Below, one piece after another: positions 2,107 to 60,331 of a stretch of 64,000 nt of DNA. The notes under the pieces are model-generated. The model was not told the origin of the DNA. It searched no databases and worked only from the letters and a program-made list of their open reading frames with translations. The DNA comes from a virus. The stretch spans positions 1 to 64,000 of IMG/VR virus record IMGVR_UViG_3300031772_000014. One strand, written 5' to 3'. Both the position numbers and the translations under genes were made by a program. Positions within the stretch are counted from its first letter, which is position 1, and each line of letters begins with the position of its first letter.

Positions 2107-2634
2107 TAACTGACGCCAGCCCTGCATCATGCGGAGCTTGCCACCATTGGCTGCGGGCAGGCGAGTGACGTACCCGACCACCGGCTGGGGATCCGCCGCG
2201 CCACCATGGCCGACGATGCCGGAGAACTTGCGACCACCGAAGGTGATCGTTCCGACCTTGAGGGGCTGCATGACCGCCGTGATGGCAGCGCCGCCGGCGC
2301 CCACGACCGCCGTGGAGTCGAAGATGCGGGTGTCGGCCTCGTACTGCCCGAGGAAGAGCACGACGGTCTTCGTGCCCGCGATGGCCTGCACGTCGTAACG
2401 TCCGCGCTCCGCGAAGAGCGGGAACGAACGCACGAGGGCCGGGTCCAGACCCACCGCCACGTTGGACGCGCGGATGAGCTGGTAGCTGGCGTTGATGGTG
2501 CACCACTCGCCATCGACGAGGGCCACCGGATTGGTCGGTTGCGCCAACGTCGGATCTGCGAGGGGGAAGTCCCGCCGGTGAACCGGGAGGATATCCGAGG
2601 TGGGCTCGAAGTTGACTTTGCTGAGAGTGGACAT
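2107..2634 (-). CDS. Putative capsid decoration/cement protein (175 aa, ends at TTA)
   Basis: AAGGAG RBS and position just upstream of the capsid gene. In-frame TTA at 2109-2107; under the standard code the ORF would run 725 nt out of frame into the capsid gene. Confidence 0.6.
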
Positions 2635-2668
2635 GAACGCTTTCTCCTTCTTACCTTGGCCGGGGGCC

Positions 2669-3025
2669 TAACGACATGATGACGGACTCGAAACCCGAGA
2701 CGTCGCCACCGTGATTCTTGCCCTCGTCGGAAGACGGGGACGCGAGTTTGTTCCACATGTCTGGACCGACCATGTCGACCGCCGCTCGTACGTTCTCGAG
2801 CTGCCCGGCATGTGCCTTCTTCTCGAGGGTTTCGATCAGTGACTCGGTCGGCTCATCGCTCAGCCCTTTGCGCTGCATCTCGGATGCGATTTTCTCGCAG
2901 TCCTGACGCAGCTCGAGGCGAGCTACTTTCTCTCGGAGCTCGTCCCGCTCTGCGGTGACGGCCCGAAGCTGTACGGCAGCTTCCTTGGCCAAACCTGCGA
3001 CCTTCGCCTGGTTGAGCTTCTCCAT
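2669..3025 (-). CDS. Putative scaffold-like coiled-coil head protein (ends at TTA; standard TAA at 2651)
   Basis: Starts MEKLNQAK after GGAGG. Coiled-coil with K-x-A motifs; ends FESVIMS-TTA. Confidence 0.55.
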
Positions 3026-3027
3026 GA

Positions 3028-57443: not shown

Positions 57444-57453
57444 CTGCGGCTCC

Positions 57454-58128
57454 TAACGGGAGGGCTGCGAAGTCGATGACTTCGTGACCGATGATGTTGA
57501 CGAGGAGCACCGGCGGAACCCCAGCAAACCCCGTGATGGCGTTCACGAAGCTTTCGTTCCTGACCTTGATGGCAAGCTCGAAGGAAGTGAGAAAGCCTCC
57601 GATGGCCAGCGGGACAGCTACAGTTTCGAGCGTTCCTGGGATGGCGAGCAAGAGCGTCTGAGCGGCAGGTAGCGCGACACCCGTACTTGACCAGATGGCG
57701 CCGCCAAAGTCGTTCTTGGGGGTGGTGTCGTTACGACGAATCTCGATGAAGAACGACGCACCAGCGGTCTGCGGGTTGATGAGCCCGATAGCCCCACCGG
57801 TCAGGACTTCCACCTGATCGATGACGAAGAATGTCTTGTCAGTCGAGAACTTGTCAACCGGGCGAGAGAACTGAAGGATACGGGTCCAGAAGTTCGCAGG
57901 CCCAGGGTTGAAGAACTCCGTGGGGTAGATGAGCGCGAAGTCGTTCACCGCACCAGCCGCGATGTTGTTCTGTAGCTGTACCCGCGTCTGGATGCGAACC
58001 TGGTTGCCCGTGTACCCCCTGGGACGAGGAGGGTCTCCACTTCCGTTCACGCCCACAGGCGCAGGCGAACCCCCCGAGGTTGGGATCCACTGGTAGCGCG
58101 ACGAGTACCCTGAAGAGACCTTGGACAT
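57454..58128 (-). CDS. Tail-associated beta-rich protein (224 aa, ends at TTA)
   Basis: In-frame TTA directly before the RBS of the next gene. Confidence 0.55.
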
Positions 58129-58138
58129 GGTGGATACC

Positions 58139-60331
58139 TAACGTAGCGTTGTAACGTTTCACCGACATGAGGATCTTGCTCATACCACCAGCACCGTGGG
58201 TAACCAGGCCCGTGTAGACGTCGACGTACCCGACCGCGTTCGAGAACCAGCAGTCCGACAAGTTCTCGAACACGTAGTTGCCGGGCCATGCGCTCAAGTC
58301 TGCAATCTGCATTGGTGCACCGTCGTGTCGAATGACCCACGTGATCACGCGACCCATGTCGTTCGAGTTCACGTTCAACGACGGGAACGTGATGGCCACG
58401 ATGGGGGACGTGGTGGGGCCCACCGTGGAGTACTCGTTGTAGTCGGACGTCTCCGCGTCAGCCCCGAACAGCAAGGTCACGATGAACGGGAGGATGAACG
58501 TGGTCGTCGCCCCAGGATCCCTGGCCACGACCTTCTTGGCCTCCACGGCACCGTCGCCACGGAGCACGCCGTTGTCGAAGTACTTCCCGGTGACCGCGAA
58601 GTTCAAAGACGAAGTTCGGAACCCGCCCCACGCCAGGGCATTCGTCTTCCCGGTCTCATTTGAAGCGTAGAGCTTCGCGGAGTAGTCATTCCTGTCCGCG
58701 TTGGTTGGGATGGGCGTTGTATCCAACTGGTGCGGGGCCGCGTAGAAGAGCCCGTCGAACTTCAGCTTGCTGGTCGTCCCGATGTCGTACCCGGCCACGC
58801 CGTCGCTGACCCCGAACACCATCGAGCGCCATCGAATCGTGCAAGGCGTGTTGGGCAGGAACGTGGGGGTCGTGCCGTCCATGTTCTGGATCATGGCGAC
58901 CGTGCCGCTGAAGAGGTCCACGATCACGTACGTCTTCGGGGCAGCCCCGGGGGAGAGCTGGATCTCCACTAGGTCGTACCCCTTGGCCACGGAGGTCCGC
59001 CACTCACCGAGGACGTTCGCGGCCCAGAAGTCCGGGATCGACAGGATGACCCAGCAGTCCGCTCCAGCGTTGAGCAACACCGCCGCGGTGTCTTGTCCAA
59101 CGAACGTGAACGAGCTTCCGGGGATGATGCCGGACATCGGGTGGTTGGAGGTATGCAGGAAGGAGGAGTACCCGGACCCCTGCCGGTTGACCCCGAACCC
59201 AGTGTCGTGGGCCCCGTAGGTCATGCGGCGCTGCCCGTAGACCACGAACCCGGAGGAGCCTCCCTTGTGGAGGTTTCCCTTGTCCTCAATCCAGGCAGAC
59301 CAAAGAGCATTGAGGGGATCGAAGTACTCGAAAGTTGCACTTAGCTGGCTCAAGGCGCTCACCATCATGGGTGAGTGCCTGGATAGGTAGTTGCGCTCTC
59401 CCCAGAACCCGGGCTGTGCTCCGGGCGCCGCGTTCGCGGCGTTCGGGGTCATGTACGAAATGGGCGCCGGCACCGTGTCGATGAGCGGGTCGGTGTTCCG
59501 CAGCAACATCTGGTTGAGCCCGTGATGGTTCAACTGCCAGAGGCTGTGCTCTCCGCTCCCAACACCGTCGCCAGAGTACCAGGTGGAGTGCGCGTACGCC
59601 TCGGGCTTCCCATCAAGTCGGTACAGGAAGCGGGCCACCGCACCATCAATGCCGTTCGGGTACGGGCCATGAATGTCGGGCGTGATGAGCGCCAGGTTGC
59701 TGGCCCTACGGTAGTTGACGAAGATGCCCCCGCTGAACGGAGGGGTGGGCGTGAACCCGTTGAACGTGACCGTGACCGGGCCAGGCACGAACCCGCTCCC
59801 GATGGGGGACGTGCTGGCCACCACACGTAGGTTGTCGTTCAACGCAGGGATGAAGTACGCATCCGGGCTGAACACGCCACCGACAAACCCATTCGTGATC
59901 GTGAAGAGATCATCGAAGGTCTCCGGGCCAGACCCAAGCCACACGTATGACCCAGGCGGGAACGTGTATGAGTTGATAGCGGGACCGAAGAGCGGAGTGG
60001 CCACGAAGACAGACTCACGTACCCCGAAGACCTGGTGCACGACGTCATCTAGGAAGTCGGTGTTCTCCCCGAGGGCCTTGAAGCCACGATTGACGTTCGC
60101 GCTGTACCCCGGGTCGTCAAAGCCGACCCAGTACGTGAACGGCGTCGGCCCAACCAGCGGGGGAGGGTTCGCGAACGCCGTACCGCCACCACCGGTCGCC
60201 CCGGAGACGATGTTGACTCGGTCATAGACCACACCGCCCGAGGCAGGTTGAGGCTGCGAGGTACCGGGACCCAGAGGAATCGCGACGTACCCGGTCCAGG
60301 TCGGATCTACGAATCGGTGGAAGTTCGACAT
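58139..60331 (-). CDS. Tail fibre-like protein, paralog B (730 aa, ends at TTA)
   Basis: FHRF start and NRGFKALGENTDFLDD coiled motif; TTA 10 nt before the next ATG. Confidence 0.6.

What the first reader, a model, noticed from the sequence alone, without database searches (positions are those of the whole stretch)
2107..58141. TTA (UUA) behaves as a fourth stop codon throughout this phage window
Seen: I checked by hand the frame of every TTA I could find in the credible genes. Only nine are in frame: minus strand 2109-2107, 2671-2669, 10007-10005, 16384-16382, 17700-17698, 55112-55110, 57456-57454, 58141-58139, and plus strand 51011-51013. None lies inside a domain. Five cut off long out-of-frame run-ons into a neighbouring gene, one splits an apparent fusion, and three lie 0-4 codons before a standard stop. 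TAA, TAG and TGA are all still used as stops. Known: UUA=stop is NCBI table 23 (Thraustochytrium mitochondria). The phage and bacterial recodings I know run stop-to-sense (TAG=Gln, TGA=Trp/Gly). Inference: this is a sense-to-stop reassignment or a dedicated UUA termination mechanism in the phage or its host. Options include an altered release factor, loss or destruction of tRNA-Leu(UAA) with peptide release at the hungry codon, or a +1 slip into UAG (five of nine sites read TTAG, four do not). No release factor or tRNA gene is visible in this window.
Basis: partly seen in the sequence, partly recalled or inferred. Interest (0 to 1): 0.97.

Follow-up and report, generated by a model that had tools for sequence, protein, structure and literature searches.

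The report
Leucine codon TTA ends phage genes
In this uncultured high-GC sediment phage and its two closest relatives the leucine codon TTA never occurs inside genes and sits exactly where related phages have TAA, TAG or TGA, so it most likely works as a fourth stop codon, a genetic-code change that I found published only for mitochondria and plastids.

Summary
All nine TTA sites are in frame at the stated coordinates, and the 75-kb contig has no other in-frame coding TTA. At the six sites with outgroup homologs, TTA lies at or within two codons of their TAA/TAG/TGA.

A sister phage (about 75% nucleotide identity) keeps TTA at seven sites and has TGA at two. It has TTA at six places where this phage has TAA or TGA. 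Only a well-supported clade of three phages shows the habit. Outgroups use TTA very rarely, and as sense.

Reading TTA as stop cuts gene overlap from 1176 to 364 bases. The codon-position pattern of substitutions switches frame at TTA. One TTA-to-ATG spacer differs by one base between the sister phages. Contigs from an independent sample keep three of the TTAs.

A +1 slip into TAG fails because only 15 of 34 sites read TTAG. Bypassing and tolerated Leu extensions also fail.

The mechanism is inferred, not shown. No release factor or tRNA lies in the available phage DNA, so a host factor is most likely, by analogy with organellar RF2 variants. The host is unknown.

This scan has noted the same phenomenon in at least 12 other phage genomes. 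I found no paper reporting it outside organelles.

The parts
2107..2109 (-). TTA ending the 175-aa head-region gene 2634..2107. The next gene, the major capsid gene, starts at ATG 2060.
   Evidence: It is in frame, and the coding signal switches to the +1 frame after it. The sister phage has TTA in this column; G002, G003 and G005 have TAA; five metagenome relatives have TGA or TAG. The standard-code run-on would be 256 codons over the capsid gene.
2669..2671 (-). TTA ending the 118-aa gene 3025..2669. A standard TAA follows 5 codons later.
   Evidence: The sister phage has TTA. G003 has TGA in the same column, and G002 and G005 have TGA within a few codons.
10005..10007 (-). TTA ending the large terminase gene 11834..10005. 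The same triplet is the TAA stop of the convergent HTH gene 9288..10007 on the + strand.
   Evidence: The protein ends ...GPLWQG, followed by TTA. The sister phage has ...GPLWQG-TGA, G002 and G003 have ...QG-TAG, and G005 has ...YQG-TAA. Pfam GpA_ATPase covers residues 93-309.
16382..16384 (-). TTA ending the 419-aa gene 17641..16382. The next ATG (16379) lies 2 nt downstream.
   Evidence: The sister phage has TTA. G002 has TGA and G003 has TAG at equivalent ends, with their alignments ending 1-2 residues before the column. The spacer is TTA-CG-ATG here and TTA-CAG-ATG in the sister phage. A 1-nt indel of this kind is tolerable only if the spacer is not translated.
17698..17700 (-). TTA at the end of the 2131-aa fused beta/beta' RNA polymerase gene 24093..17698, followed immediately by TGA.
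   Evidence: The protein ends ...SHVY, followed by TTA-TGA. The relatives have ...HY-TAG...HY-TGA and ...AY-TAA, and the sister phage has TGA in this column. Pfam Rpb2 and Rpb1 domains were found.
51011..51013 (+). TTA ending the RusA-like gene 50549..51013. A standard TAA follows 4 codons later.
   Evidence: G003 has TGA and G002 has TAG in the same column, followed by the same CTGGGA. The sister phage has TTA, and its nearby TAA is replaced by CAA, so its next standard stop is 23 codons away. The independent sample X2 keeps TTA.
55110..55112 (-). TTA ending fibre-like gene 57443..55110 (777 aa). AGGA, then 6 nt, then ATG 55100 starts the next gene in the same frame.
   Evidence: The sister phage keeps TTAGGA-6 nt-ATG. 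The site is a gene boundary inside a 1118-codon standard-code ORF. No outgroup homolog covers this C-terminus.
57454..57456 (-). TTA ending the 224-aa gene 58128..57454. It overlaps an AGGAG Shine-Dalgarno sequence, and the next ATG is at 57443.
   Evidence: The coding signal switches to the +1 frame at this site. The sister phage keeps TTAGGAG-ATG. The downstream protein aligns with its paralog from residue 3, so ATG 57443 is a real N-terminus. Sample X2 keeps the triplet.
58139..58141 (-). TTA ending fibre-like gene 60331..58139 (730 aa). The next ATG is at 58128.
   Evidence: The frame switches at this site. The sister phage keeps TTAGGT-ATG with the same 10-nt spacing. Sample X2 keeps the triplet.

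Best explanation
UUA has lost its meaning as leucine in the system that translates this phage lineage, and it serves as a translation stop signal alongside UAA, UAG and UGA.

Shown by comparative sequence evidence: TTA is absent from internal codons, occupies stop columns, exchanges with TAA and TGA between sister phages, and marks the point where coding constraint ends.

Inferred: the ribosome actually releases the peptide at UUA. Also inferred is how this happens. The most likely route is a class-I release factor of the RF2 type with broadened second-base recognition, working in a host that lacks a UUA-reading tRNA-Leu(UAA). This follows the organellar cases, where a substitution of RF2 Ser204 accompanies UUA = stop. 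I take the factor to be host-encoded for three reasons. The complete related phage genomes and all available sequence of this clade carry no release factor. This contig has no tRNA genes. In the sister phage, TTA also closes small genes of the presumed early region, so the capacity should exist from the start of infection.

The confidence given (0.8) is for the claim that TTA ends translation in this lineage; the host RF2-variant route is roughly even odds.
For: 1. Stop columns. At six of six testable sites, outgroup homologs carry TAA/TAG/TGA in the TTA column or within two codons of it.

2. Stop-codon turnover between G000 and the sister phage (G001+G006). TTA->TTA occurs 7 times, TTA->TGA twice, TAA->TTA 4 times and TGA->TTA twice.

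3. Gene models. With my own caller, TTA ends 9 of 72, 4 of 17, 18 of 122 and 3 of 30 genes in the four clade contigs, with no internal TTA. Overlapping bases fall from 1176 to 364, 161 to 9, 690 to 381 and 224 to 79. Nothing changes in outgroups G002 and G003.

4. Substitution phase. Between the sister phages, upstream of TTA the differences by codon position are 76/52/145. Downstream they are 92/88/57, which fits the next gene's frame.

5. Spacer indel. The 16384 junction reads TTA-CG-ATG here and TTA-CAG-ATG in the sister phage.

6. No backup stops. The median distance from TTA to the next in-frame standard stop is 54 codons.

7. Phylogeny. The three TTA-using phages form a clade with 95/95 support in the capsid tree. 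Outgroup G002 has a TTA inside its RNA polymerase gene, in a well-aligned region.

8. Sequence quality. Logan contigs of the source run are identical over 20 kb. An independent sample keeps TTA at 51011, 57456 and 58141.

9. Literature. UUA = stop with an RF2 Ser204 substitution arose twice in organelles (PMC12574857).
Against: There is no direct evidence of peptide release at UUA: no proteomics, no ribosome profiling and no RNA run holds this phage. The host is unknown, so neither the absence of tRNA-Leu(UAA) nor an altered release factor could be checked.

About 59% of this phage's genome is missing (CheckV estimates 41% complete). A phage-encoded factor therefore cannot be excluded.

The MAG that holds the phage C contig has ordinary RF1 (PVT) and RF2 (SPF) motifs and some apparently internal TTAs. 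It gives no support as a host.

Three of the nine sites have a standard stop within 0-5 codons and would work under either reading. The three tail junctions lack outgroup homologs at their C-termini, so they rest on the sister phage, the frame switch and the paralog N-terminus.
Confidence: 0.8

Rival explanations
1. UUA is merely unassigned, a hungry codon with no tRNA. Ribosomes stall there and are freed by a codon-independent rescue route (ArfB/ArfA-type release, tmRNA, or peptidyl-tRNA drop-off) rather than by a release factor that recognises UUA.
For: This gives the same sequence footprint: no internal TTA, and TTA at gene ends. TTA is almost unused even in the outgroups, at 2 in 56,451 and 1 in 43,074 codons, which fits a codon-disappearance stage. 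No altered release factor was found.
Against: TTA closes 12-24% of genes, including the terminase, RNA polymerase and fibres, with no backup stop. It also keeps replacing TAA and TGA. Slow stalling, or tmRNA tagging for degradation, would be costly at that scale. TTA sits 2-10 nt before the next start codon, as in termination-reinitiation coupling, where a stalled ribosome would block the start. From my own knowledge, in vitro work on unassigned codons in Micrococcus luteus found stalling without release.
Confidence: 0.12
2. UUA is still read as leucine, at least part of the time. The TTA sites would then be regulated read-through points that yield extended or fused isoforms, controlled by the supply of tRNA-Leu(UAA) as with bldA in Streptomyces.
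For: Site 55112 would give a clean in-frame fusion of 777 + 340 aa. Three sites have near backup stops. UUA-dependent regulation and phage UUA recoding are documented in Streptomyces (PMC10732093).
Against: Most run-ons are out of frame or antisense over the next gene and show no coding constraint of their own. The 1-nt spacer indel at 16384 turns junk into a fusion between the sister phages. Outgroup homologs end at the TTA column. TTA exchanges freely with standard stops.
Confidence: 0.04
3. The ribosome pauses at the hungry UUA and slips +1 into UAG (T-TAG), so a standard stop does the work. This would be the counterpart of the -1 slip proposed for human mitochondrial AGA/AGG.
For: Five of nine sites here and 15 of 34 in the clade read TTAG, against 16% of all TTA triplets.
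Against: Nineteen of 34 sites read TTAC or TTAT and have no stop in the +1 or -1 frame. These include the terminase and the 16384 site. The excess of G after TTA matches the excess of G after TAA stops (14 of 27), and in several cases that G belongs to the next gene's Shine-Dalgarno sequence.
Confidence: 0.02
4. The pattern is a sequencing, assembly or editing artefact, with true TAA or TAG miscalled as TTA or TTAG.
For: TAA->TTA is a single base change, and TTAG differs from TAG by one extra T.
Against: An independent assembler reproduces the source sequence exactly over 20 kb. A second sample and study keep three of the TTAs. Two further phages from other metagenomes carry TTA at orthologous and additional stop columns. 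Fourteen genes of the same contig end normally in TAA.
Confidence: 0.01
5. UUA triggers translational bypassing (hopping) across a short gap, joining the flanking ORFs into one protein, as proposed for the phiHau3 terminase.
For: The three tail junctions have a TTA plus a roughly 10-nt gap, similar in length to the phiHau3 gaps. At 57456 the codon before TTA (CCG) recurs 5 nt downstream, in the next gene's frame.
Against: Homologs end at the TTA column instead of continuing. The downstream ORFs have their own Shine-Dalgarno sequence and ATG. The paralog alignment starts at residue 2-3 of both fibre proteins. No matching landing codon exists at 55112 or at most other sites.
Confidence: 0.01

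Closest known systems
UUA = stop in labyrinthulean (Thraustochytrium) mitochondria
   Same: The same codon shows the same footprint: it is absent inside genes and present where a stop is expected, alongside the standard stops. The proposed basis is an RF2-type factor with its invariant Ser204 replaced by Ala, Gly or Cys (PMC12574857).
   Different: That case is an organelle with a handful of genes and its own nuclear-encoded release factor. Here the system is a dsDNA phage of probably about 185 kb, translated by a bacterial host. No release factor or tRNA set could be examined.
UUA/UCA = stop in peDinoflagellate plastids, and UUA/UUG = stop in Marsupiomonadales and Pseudoscourfieldia mitochondria
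   Same: These are independent Leu-to-stop changes of UUA. They were detected in the same way, by C-terminal alignment columns, and they correlate with a lack of the cognate tRNA and with altered RF2 or RF1 (PMC12574857).
   Different: Those codes also recruit UCA or UUG. Here TTG (113 uses in the 10,477-codon training set) and TCA (71 in called genes) remain ordinary sense codons.
Stop-to-sense recoded phages (TAG = Gln, TGA = Trp), such as crAss-like and other gut phages
   Same: These are phage lineages whose genes can be read correctly only with a non-standard code, discovered from metagenomes (PMC11210395 and related papers).
   Different: The direction is opposite (stop to sense). They usually carry suppressor tRNAs, and recoding is concentrated in late genes. 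Here a sense codon becomes a stop, the phage DNA at hand carries no matching machinery, and genes of all classes are affected.
Streptomyces UUA/bldA regulation and the proposed UUA-triggered bypass in the phiHau3 terminase
   Same: A very rare UUA codon in a high-GC system acts as a non-standard decoding signal in phage genes, followed by short gaps of about 10 nt (PMC10732093).
   Different: In that system UUA lies inside one gene whose parts must be joined. Here it lies at true gene ends, where homologs stop.
Unassigned codons in high-GC or reduced bacteria (for example AGA/AUA in Micrococcus luteus, CGG in Mycoplasma)
   Same: Codon disappearance under GC pressure is the likely first step. 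TTA is nearly unused in the whole phage group. The review table in PMC4695839 lists unassigned but no sense-to-stop codons outside mitochondria.
   Different: Unassigned codons are simply avoided. Here the codon has come back at 12-24% of gene ends.

Membership tests
Leu(UUA)-to-stop codon reassignment (table-23-type code) | UUA is absent from internal sense positions of genes. | tested here: met
   There are no internal in-frame TTAs in 72 + 17 + 122 + 30 called genes of the clade once TTA is allowed as a stop. The eight found under the standard code all lie at the point where coding signal ends, or at a gene boundary.
Leu(UUA)-to-stop codon reassignment (table-23-type code) | UUA occupies alignment columns where homologs have standard stop codons. 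| tested here: met
   This holds at six of six testable sites in the window, in the exact column or within two codons. There are thirteen TTA/standard or TTA/TTA stop-column pairs with the sister phage.
Leu(UUA)-to-stop codon reassignment (table-23-type code) | The translating system has no tRNA that decodes UUA. | not testable with these tools
   This phage contig has no tRNA genes. The tRNA genes in relatives include none with anticodon UAA. The host is unknown.
Leu(UUA)-to-stop codon reassignment (table-23-type code) | A release factor with an altered codon-recognition region (RF2 Ser204 substitution in the organellar cases). | tested here: inconclusive
   No RF-1 domain gene occurs in G000 or G002-G006. 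The MAG holding phage C has normal SPF and PVT motifs. No [Ala/Gly]-Pro-Phe RF2 was found at zero mismatches in 401 genomes of that MAG's phylum or in IMG/VR. The true host was not identified.
Leu(UUA)-to-stop codon reassignment (table-23-type code) | Protein C-termini or ribosome footprints end at UUA. | not testable with these tools
   No RNA run holds this phage, and no proteomic data are available.
UUA-triggered translational bypass (phiHau3 terminase type) | The ORFs on both sides of the UUA gap align to one continuous homologous protein. | tested here: not met
   Homologs terminate at the TTA column. Downstream ORFs are separate genes with their own starts, and the paralog alignment begins at residue 2-3.
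Hungry-codon frameshift into a standard stop (human mitochondrial AGA/AGG type) | A standard stop becomes available in the shifted frame at every site. | tested here: not met
   Only 15 of 34 sites read TTAG. The others read TTAC or TTAT, with no stop in the +1 or -1 frame.

The most novel reading that the evidence does not exclude
The phage itself imposes the four-stop code on infection. It would remove or disable the host's UUA-reading tRNA and bring its own UUA-terminating factor, encoded in the unsequenced about 59% of the genome or carried in the virion. Host mRNAs containing UUA would then be truncated while phage genes are read correctly. In this reading, a sense-to-stop switch serves as a host shut-off weapon.
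Probability: 0.1. Interest if true: 0.97.

Novelty: new variant of a known kind. Interest (0 to 1): 0.9.

Why it matters
Every natural code change accepted so far in bacteria and their viruses turns a stop into a sense codon, swaps one amino acid for another, or leaves a codon unassigned. In the literature I could search, a sense codon captured as a stop is documented only in organelles with tiny gene sets.

If UUA ends translation here, a free-living translation system, most likely the bacterial host, runs a four-stop code. That would bring the release-factor question raised by the organellar RF2 Ser204 variants into bacteria, where it can be tested biochemically.

It also has practical weight. 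Standard gene callers mis-annotate 12-24% of the genes in such phages, producing false fusions, long false C-terminal tails and false overlaps. Screens for alternative codes that only ask which amino acid a codon encodes cannot see this change. The trait could also serve as a marker linking these phages to their unknown hosts.

Tried and rejected
- Megablast of the RNA polymerase gene against GenBank phages gave no match. tblastn found only distant relatives, at 32% identity or less.
- No RNA holder was listed among the public runs for this stretch, so expression and RNA editing could not be examined.
- The 224-aa gene between two TTA junctions has no homolog in the outgroup genomes. The three tail junctions therefore could not be tested against outgroups.
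- Release factor search: the Pfam RF-1 domain is absent from G000, G002, G003, G004, G005 and G006.
- Pfam scans found nothing related to translation. I scanned ten proteins, mostly without outgroup homologs, 63 proteins of the sister phage's extra 32 kb and 40 further window proteins. The hits were replication and nucleotide-metabolism enzymes, a dCMP/cytidine-deaminase-family protein, ParB, a Tad2-like protein, exonucleases and similar.
- Host search: capsid relatives sit in MAGs labelled with at least six different phyla, so binning gives no host.
- The MAG that holds phage C has normal RF1 and RF2 motifs and a few apparently internal TTAs.
- A degenerate DNA pattern for RF2 with Ala or Gly in place of the SPF serine matched nothing at zero mismatches in 401 genomes of that MAG's phylum. 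Nearly all restore Ser; two are not RF2-like.
- The same pattern gave one spurious hit in IMG/VR.
- A blind tblastn of every TTA-containing ORF against outgroups produced many alignments in shadow and alternative frames of conserved genes. These are not coding frames and were set aside.
- The odd tRNA-like genes next to the terminase in relatives occur in a non-TTA outgroup too, so I rejected them as the cause.
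Full report
**What the window is.** The window is the first 64 kb of a single 75,150-bp viral contig. 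The contig has 61.6% G+C and no tRNA or tmRNA genes. CheckV rates it 41% complete. Complete relatives are about 185-189 kb, so more than half of this phage is probably missing.

The contig encodes a GpA-type large terminase, a 2131-aa fused beta/beta' multisubunit RNA polymerase and a RusA-like resolvase. It also has a standard replication module with a family A DNA polymerase, DnaB-type helicase, primase, UDG, dNMP kinase and a RecA-like protein. GenBank phages are only distantly related, at 32% protein identity or less. Public runs that hold the sequence are sediment metagenomes.

**Checking the observation.** I trained a codon log-odds model on twelve long ORFs. I then scored the 40 codons before and after every one of the 182 TTA triplets, on both strands.

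- At 2109, 2671, 16384, 57456 and 58141 the coding signal jumps to another frame right after TTA.
- At 10007 it passes to the opposite strand.
- At 17700 and 51011 a standard stop follows within 0 and 4 codons.
- At 55112 the TTA is followed by AGGA, six bases and an in-frame ATG.

With a simple gene caller of my own, allowing TTA as a stop gives 72 genes with 9 TTA stops. Overlapping bases fall from 1176 to 364. Three consecutive tail genes then end 9-10 nt before the next ATG. As a control, other rare A/T-rich codons coincide with loss of downstream coding signal in 9-22% of cases, against 6 of 8 for TTA.

**Homologs.** IMG/VR, metagenome and MAG searches gave a graded series of relatives.
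- A sister phage lies on two contigs of one metagenome: G001 (17 kb) and G006 (94 kb). Together they are collinear with positions 1-72,898 at about 70-84% nucleotide identity.
- "Phage C" is a 31.7-kb contig with 65.8% G+C.
- The outgroups are G002 (185 kb), G003 (142 kb), G005 (189 kb) and several shorter contigs.

At all six window sites with outgroup homologs, a standard stop lies in the TTA column or within two codons of it.

| Site | This phage | Relatives |
|---|---|---|
| Terminase | ...PLWQG-TTA | ...PLWQG-TGA, ...QG-TAG, ...YQG-TAA |
| RNA polymerase | ...HVY-TTA-TGA | ...HY-TAG, ...HY-TGA, ...AY-TAA |
| RusA-like | ...SRL-TTA-CTGGGA | ...VRF-TGA-CTGGGA, ...LAL-TAG-CTGGGA |
| Gene 2634..2107 | ...WRQ-TTA | TAA in three outgroup genomes; TGA or TAG in seven metagenome loci |

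**Turnover between sister phages.** Across orthologous stop columns, G000 versus the sister phage gives:
- TTA/TTA seven times.
- TTA/TGA twice (terminase, RNA polymerase).
- TAA/TTA four times (genes ending at 299, 44700, 51910 and 53880).
- TGA/TTA twice (genes ending at 3028 and 71531).

TTA therefore behaves as one more interchangeable stop codon. The exchanges seen are those reachable by a single base change.

The sister phage has 22 TTA-closed genes and phage C has 3. None of them has an internal TTA. In the capsid tree these three phages form a clade with 95/95 support. The other relatives have either no in-frame TTA or, rarely, internal ones. G002 has a TTA at codon 220 of its RNA polymerase, inside a well-aligned block, so there it must be sense. 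The trait thus arose once within this phage group.

**Is the run-on translated?** Three results say no.
- Between the sister phages, substitutions upstream of four TTAs fall mainly on the third position of the TTA frame (76/52/145). Downstream the pattern shifts to the next gene's frame (92/88/57).
- The junction at 16384 reads TTA-CG-ATG here and TTA-CAG-ATG in the sister phage. Read-through would give out-of-frame junk in one phage and a fusion in the other.
- The fibre-like proteins starting at 60331 and 57443 are paralogs that align from residue 2-3 (E = 1e-41). ATG 57443 is therefore a true N-terminus and not an internal methionine.

Backup stops are not enriched: the median distance from TTA to the next standard stop is 54 codons.

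**Is the DNA right?** Logan's independent assembly of the probable source run matches positions 41,001-61,000 without a single difference. A second sample from another study, about 99.5% identical, keeps TTA at 51011, 57456 and 58141. The trait is also present in contigs from several unrelated metagenomes. Sequence error is excluded.

**Rejected readings.**
- A +1 slip into TAG fits only 15 of 34 sites. The others read TTAC or TTAT. The excess of G after TTA mirrors that after TAA stops (14 of 27), and in several cases the G is part of the next Shine-Dalgarno sequence.
- The lack of A after TTA is explained by the near-total absence of TTAA from the whole phage group.
- UUA-triggered bypassing, proposed for the Streptomyces phage phiHau3 terminase (PMC10732093), requires the flanking ORFs to form one protein. 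Here homologs end at TTA.
- Tolerated stop-loss would give many different sense codons, not always TTA.

**Mechanism.** This part is inference. UUA = stop is published for labyrinthulean mitochondria and peDinoflagellate plastids. Both have the invariant Ser204 of an RF2-type factor replaced. It is also published, together with UUG, for two green-algal mitochondrial lineages with altered mtRF1a. In each of those cases no cognate tRNA gene is encoded (PMC12574857). A review table lists sense-to-stop changes only for mitochondria (PMC4695839). My searches found no report for bacteria or phages.

By analogy I propose a release factor with broadened second-base reading, working in a host without tRNA-Leu(UAA). 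I favour a host factor for two reasons.
- No RF-1 domain gene exists in the clade sequence at hand or in two complete outgroup genomes.
- In the sister phage, TTA also closes many small genes of the presumed early region, for example TTA-AGGAGG-ATG at G006 90,296. The assignment of that region as early is itself inferred from gene content.

I could not find the host. MAG bins that hold relatives belong to many phyla. The bin with phage C has normal release-factor motifs. A pattern search for Ala/Gly variants of the RF2 motif found none in 401 genomes of that bin's phylum, nor in IMG/VR. A stall-and-rescue route at an unassigned codon remains the main rival.

**Earlier notes of this scan.** The notes report the same TTA behaviour in at least 12 other phage genomes. 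Some of them name candidate hosts (a myxobacterial and an actinobacterial group) with altered release factors. I treated these as leads only and could not test them here. One note on this genome suggested that TTA stops are a late-gene timing switch. The many TTA stops in the sister phage's presumed early region speak against that.

**Verdict.** I put the claim that TTA ends translation in this lineage at about 0.8. The claim that a host RF2-type variant does it is roughly even odds. It is a new variant of a kind known only from organelles, and of high interest.

Noticed in passing
Whole contig (window 1-64000), and relatives G001, G002, G003, G005, G006 and phage C: The palindrome TTAA is almost absent from the whole phage group. 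There are 0 copies in this 75-kb contig (about 18 expected from TTA counts), 0 in 185-kb G002, 0 in G003, and 5 in 55%-GC G005 (about 235 expected). This suggests avoidance of a TTAA-specific restriction system. It also explains why no TTA stop is followed by A.
   Followed up: partly
L021 (G001) 15022-15090 (-); L061 (phage C) 12882-12952 (-); G003 60591-60661 (-): Just downstream of the terminase, the relatives carry a tRNA-like gene that Rfam scores as tRNA (46-57 bits). It has an encoded CCA end, but its anticodon loop is replaced by a 6-nt loop containing GAAA, so it has no anticodon. Beside it lies a 'tRNA-His(AUG)'-like gene that lacks U33. This window has lost the whole cluster: 23 nt stand in place of about 630 nt. 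The cluster occurs in a non-TTA outgroup too, so it is not the cause of the TTA stops.
   Followed up: partly
G002 97360-97445 (-): ARAGORN predicts an 86-nt tRNA with an 8-nt anticodon loop and a four-base anticodon (ACUC), lying between tRNA-Tyr and tRNA-Arg(UCU). It could be a quadruplet decoder or a frameshift suppressor.
   Followed up: no
window 17698-24093 (-): The beta and beta' subunits of a multisubunit RNA polymerase are fused into one 2131-aa protein (Pfam Rpb2_6, Rpb2_3, Rpb1_1, Rpb1_2 and Rpb1_5). The fusion is conserved in all relatives and is distantly related to genes of Vibrio and Salmonella phages of about 180 kb.
   Followed up: partly
window 10005-10007: One triplet ends two convergent genes: TAA for the HTH/AbiEi-like gene on the + strand and TTA for the terminase on the - strand. 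In the sister phage the two genes end separately, in TAG and TGA.
   Followed up: partly
window 54087-60331 (-): This is a tail cassette of two paralogous fibre-like proteins (730 and 777 aa, 29% identity over about 600 residues from the N-terminus). Each is followed by a smaller gene. Their N-terminal roughly 300 residues match a single gene in G002 and G005.
   Followed up: partly
Whole contig compared with G002 and G003: Stop-codon usage has shifted in the TTA clade. TAA plus TTA close 32% of genes here and 25% in G006, against 8.5% TAA in the outgroups. TGA falls from 71% to 51%. The called genes of G001 and phage C use no TAA at all.
   Followed up: no
G000 contig 72710-72730 (outside the window) and G006 61915-61935: A conserved intergenic hairpin, GTCTTACG..CGTAAGAC, has arms that contain TTA and TAA. 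A similar hairpin surrounds a TTA stop at G006 71539.
   Followed up: no
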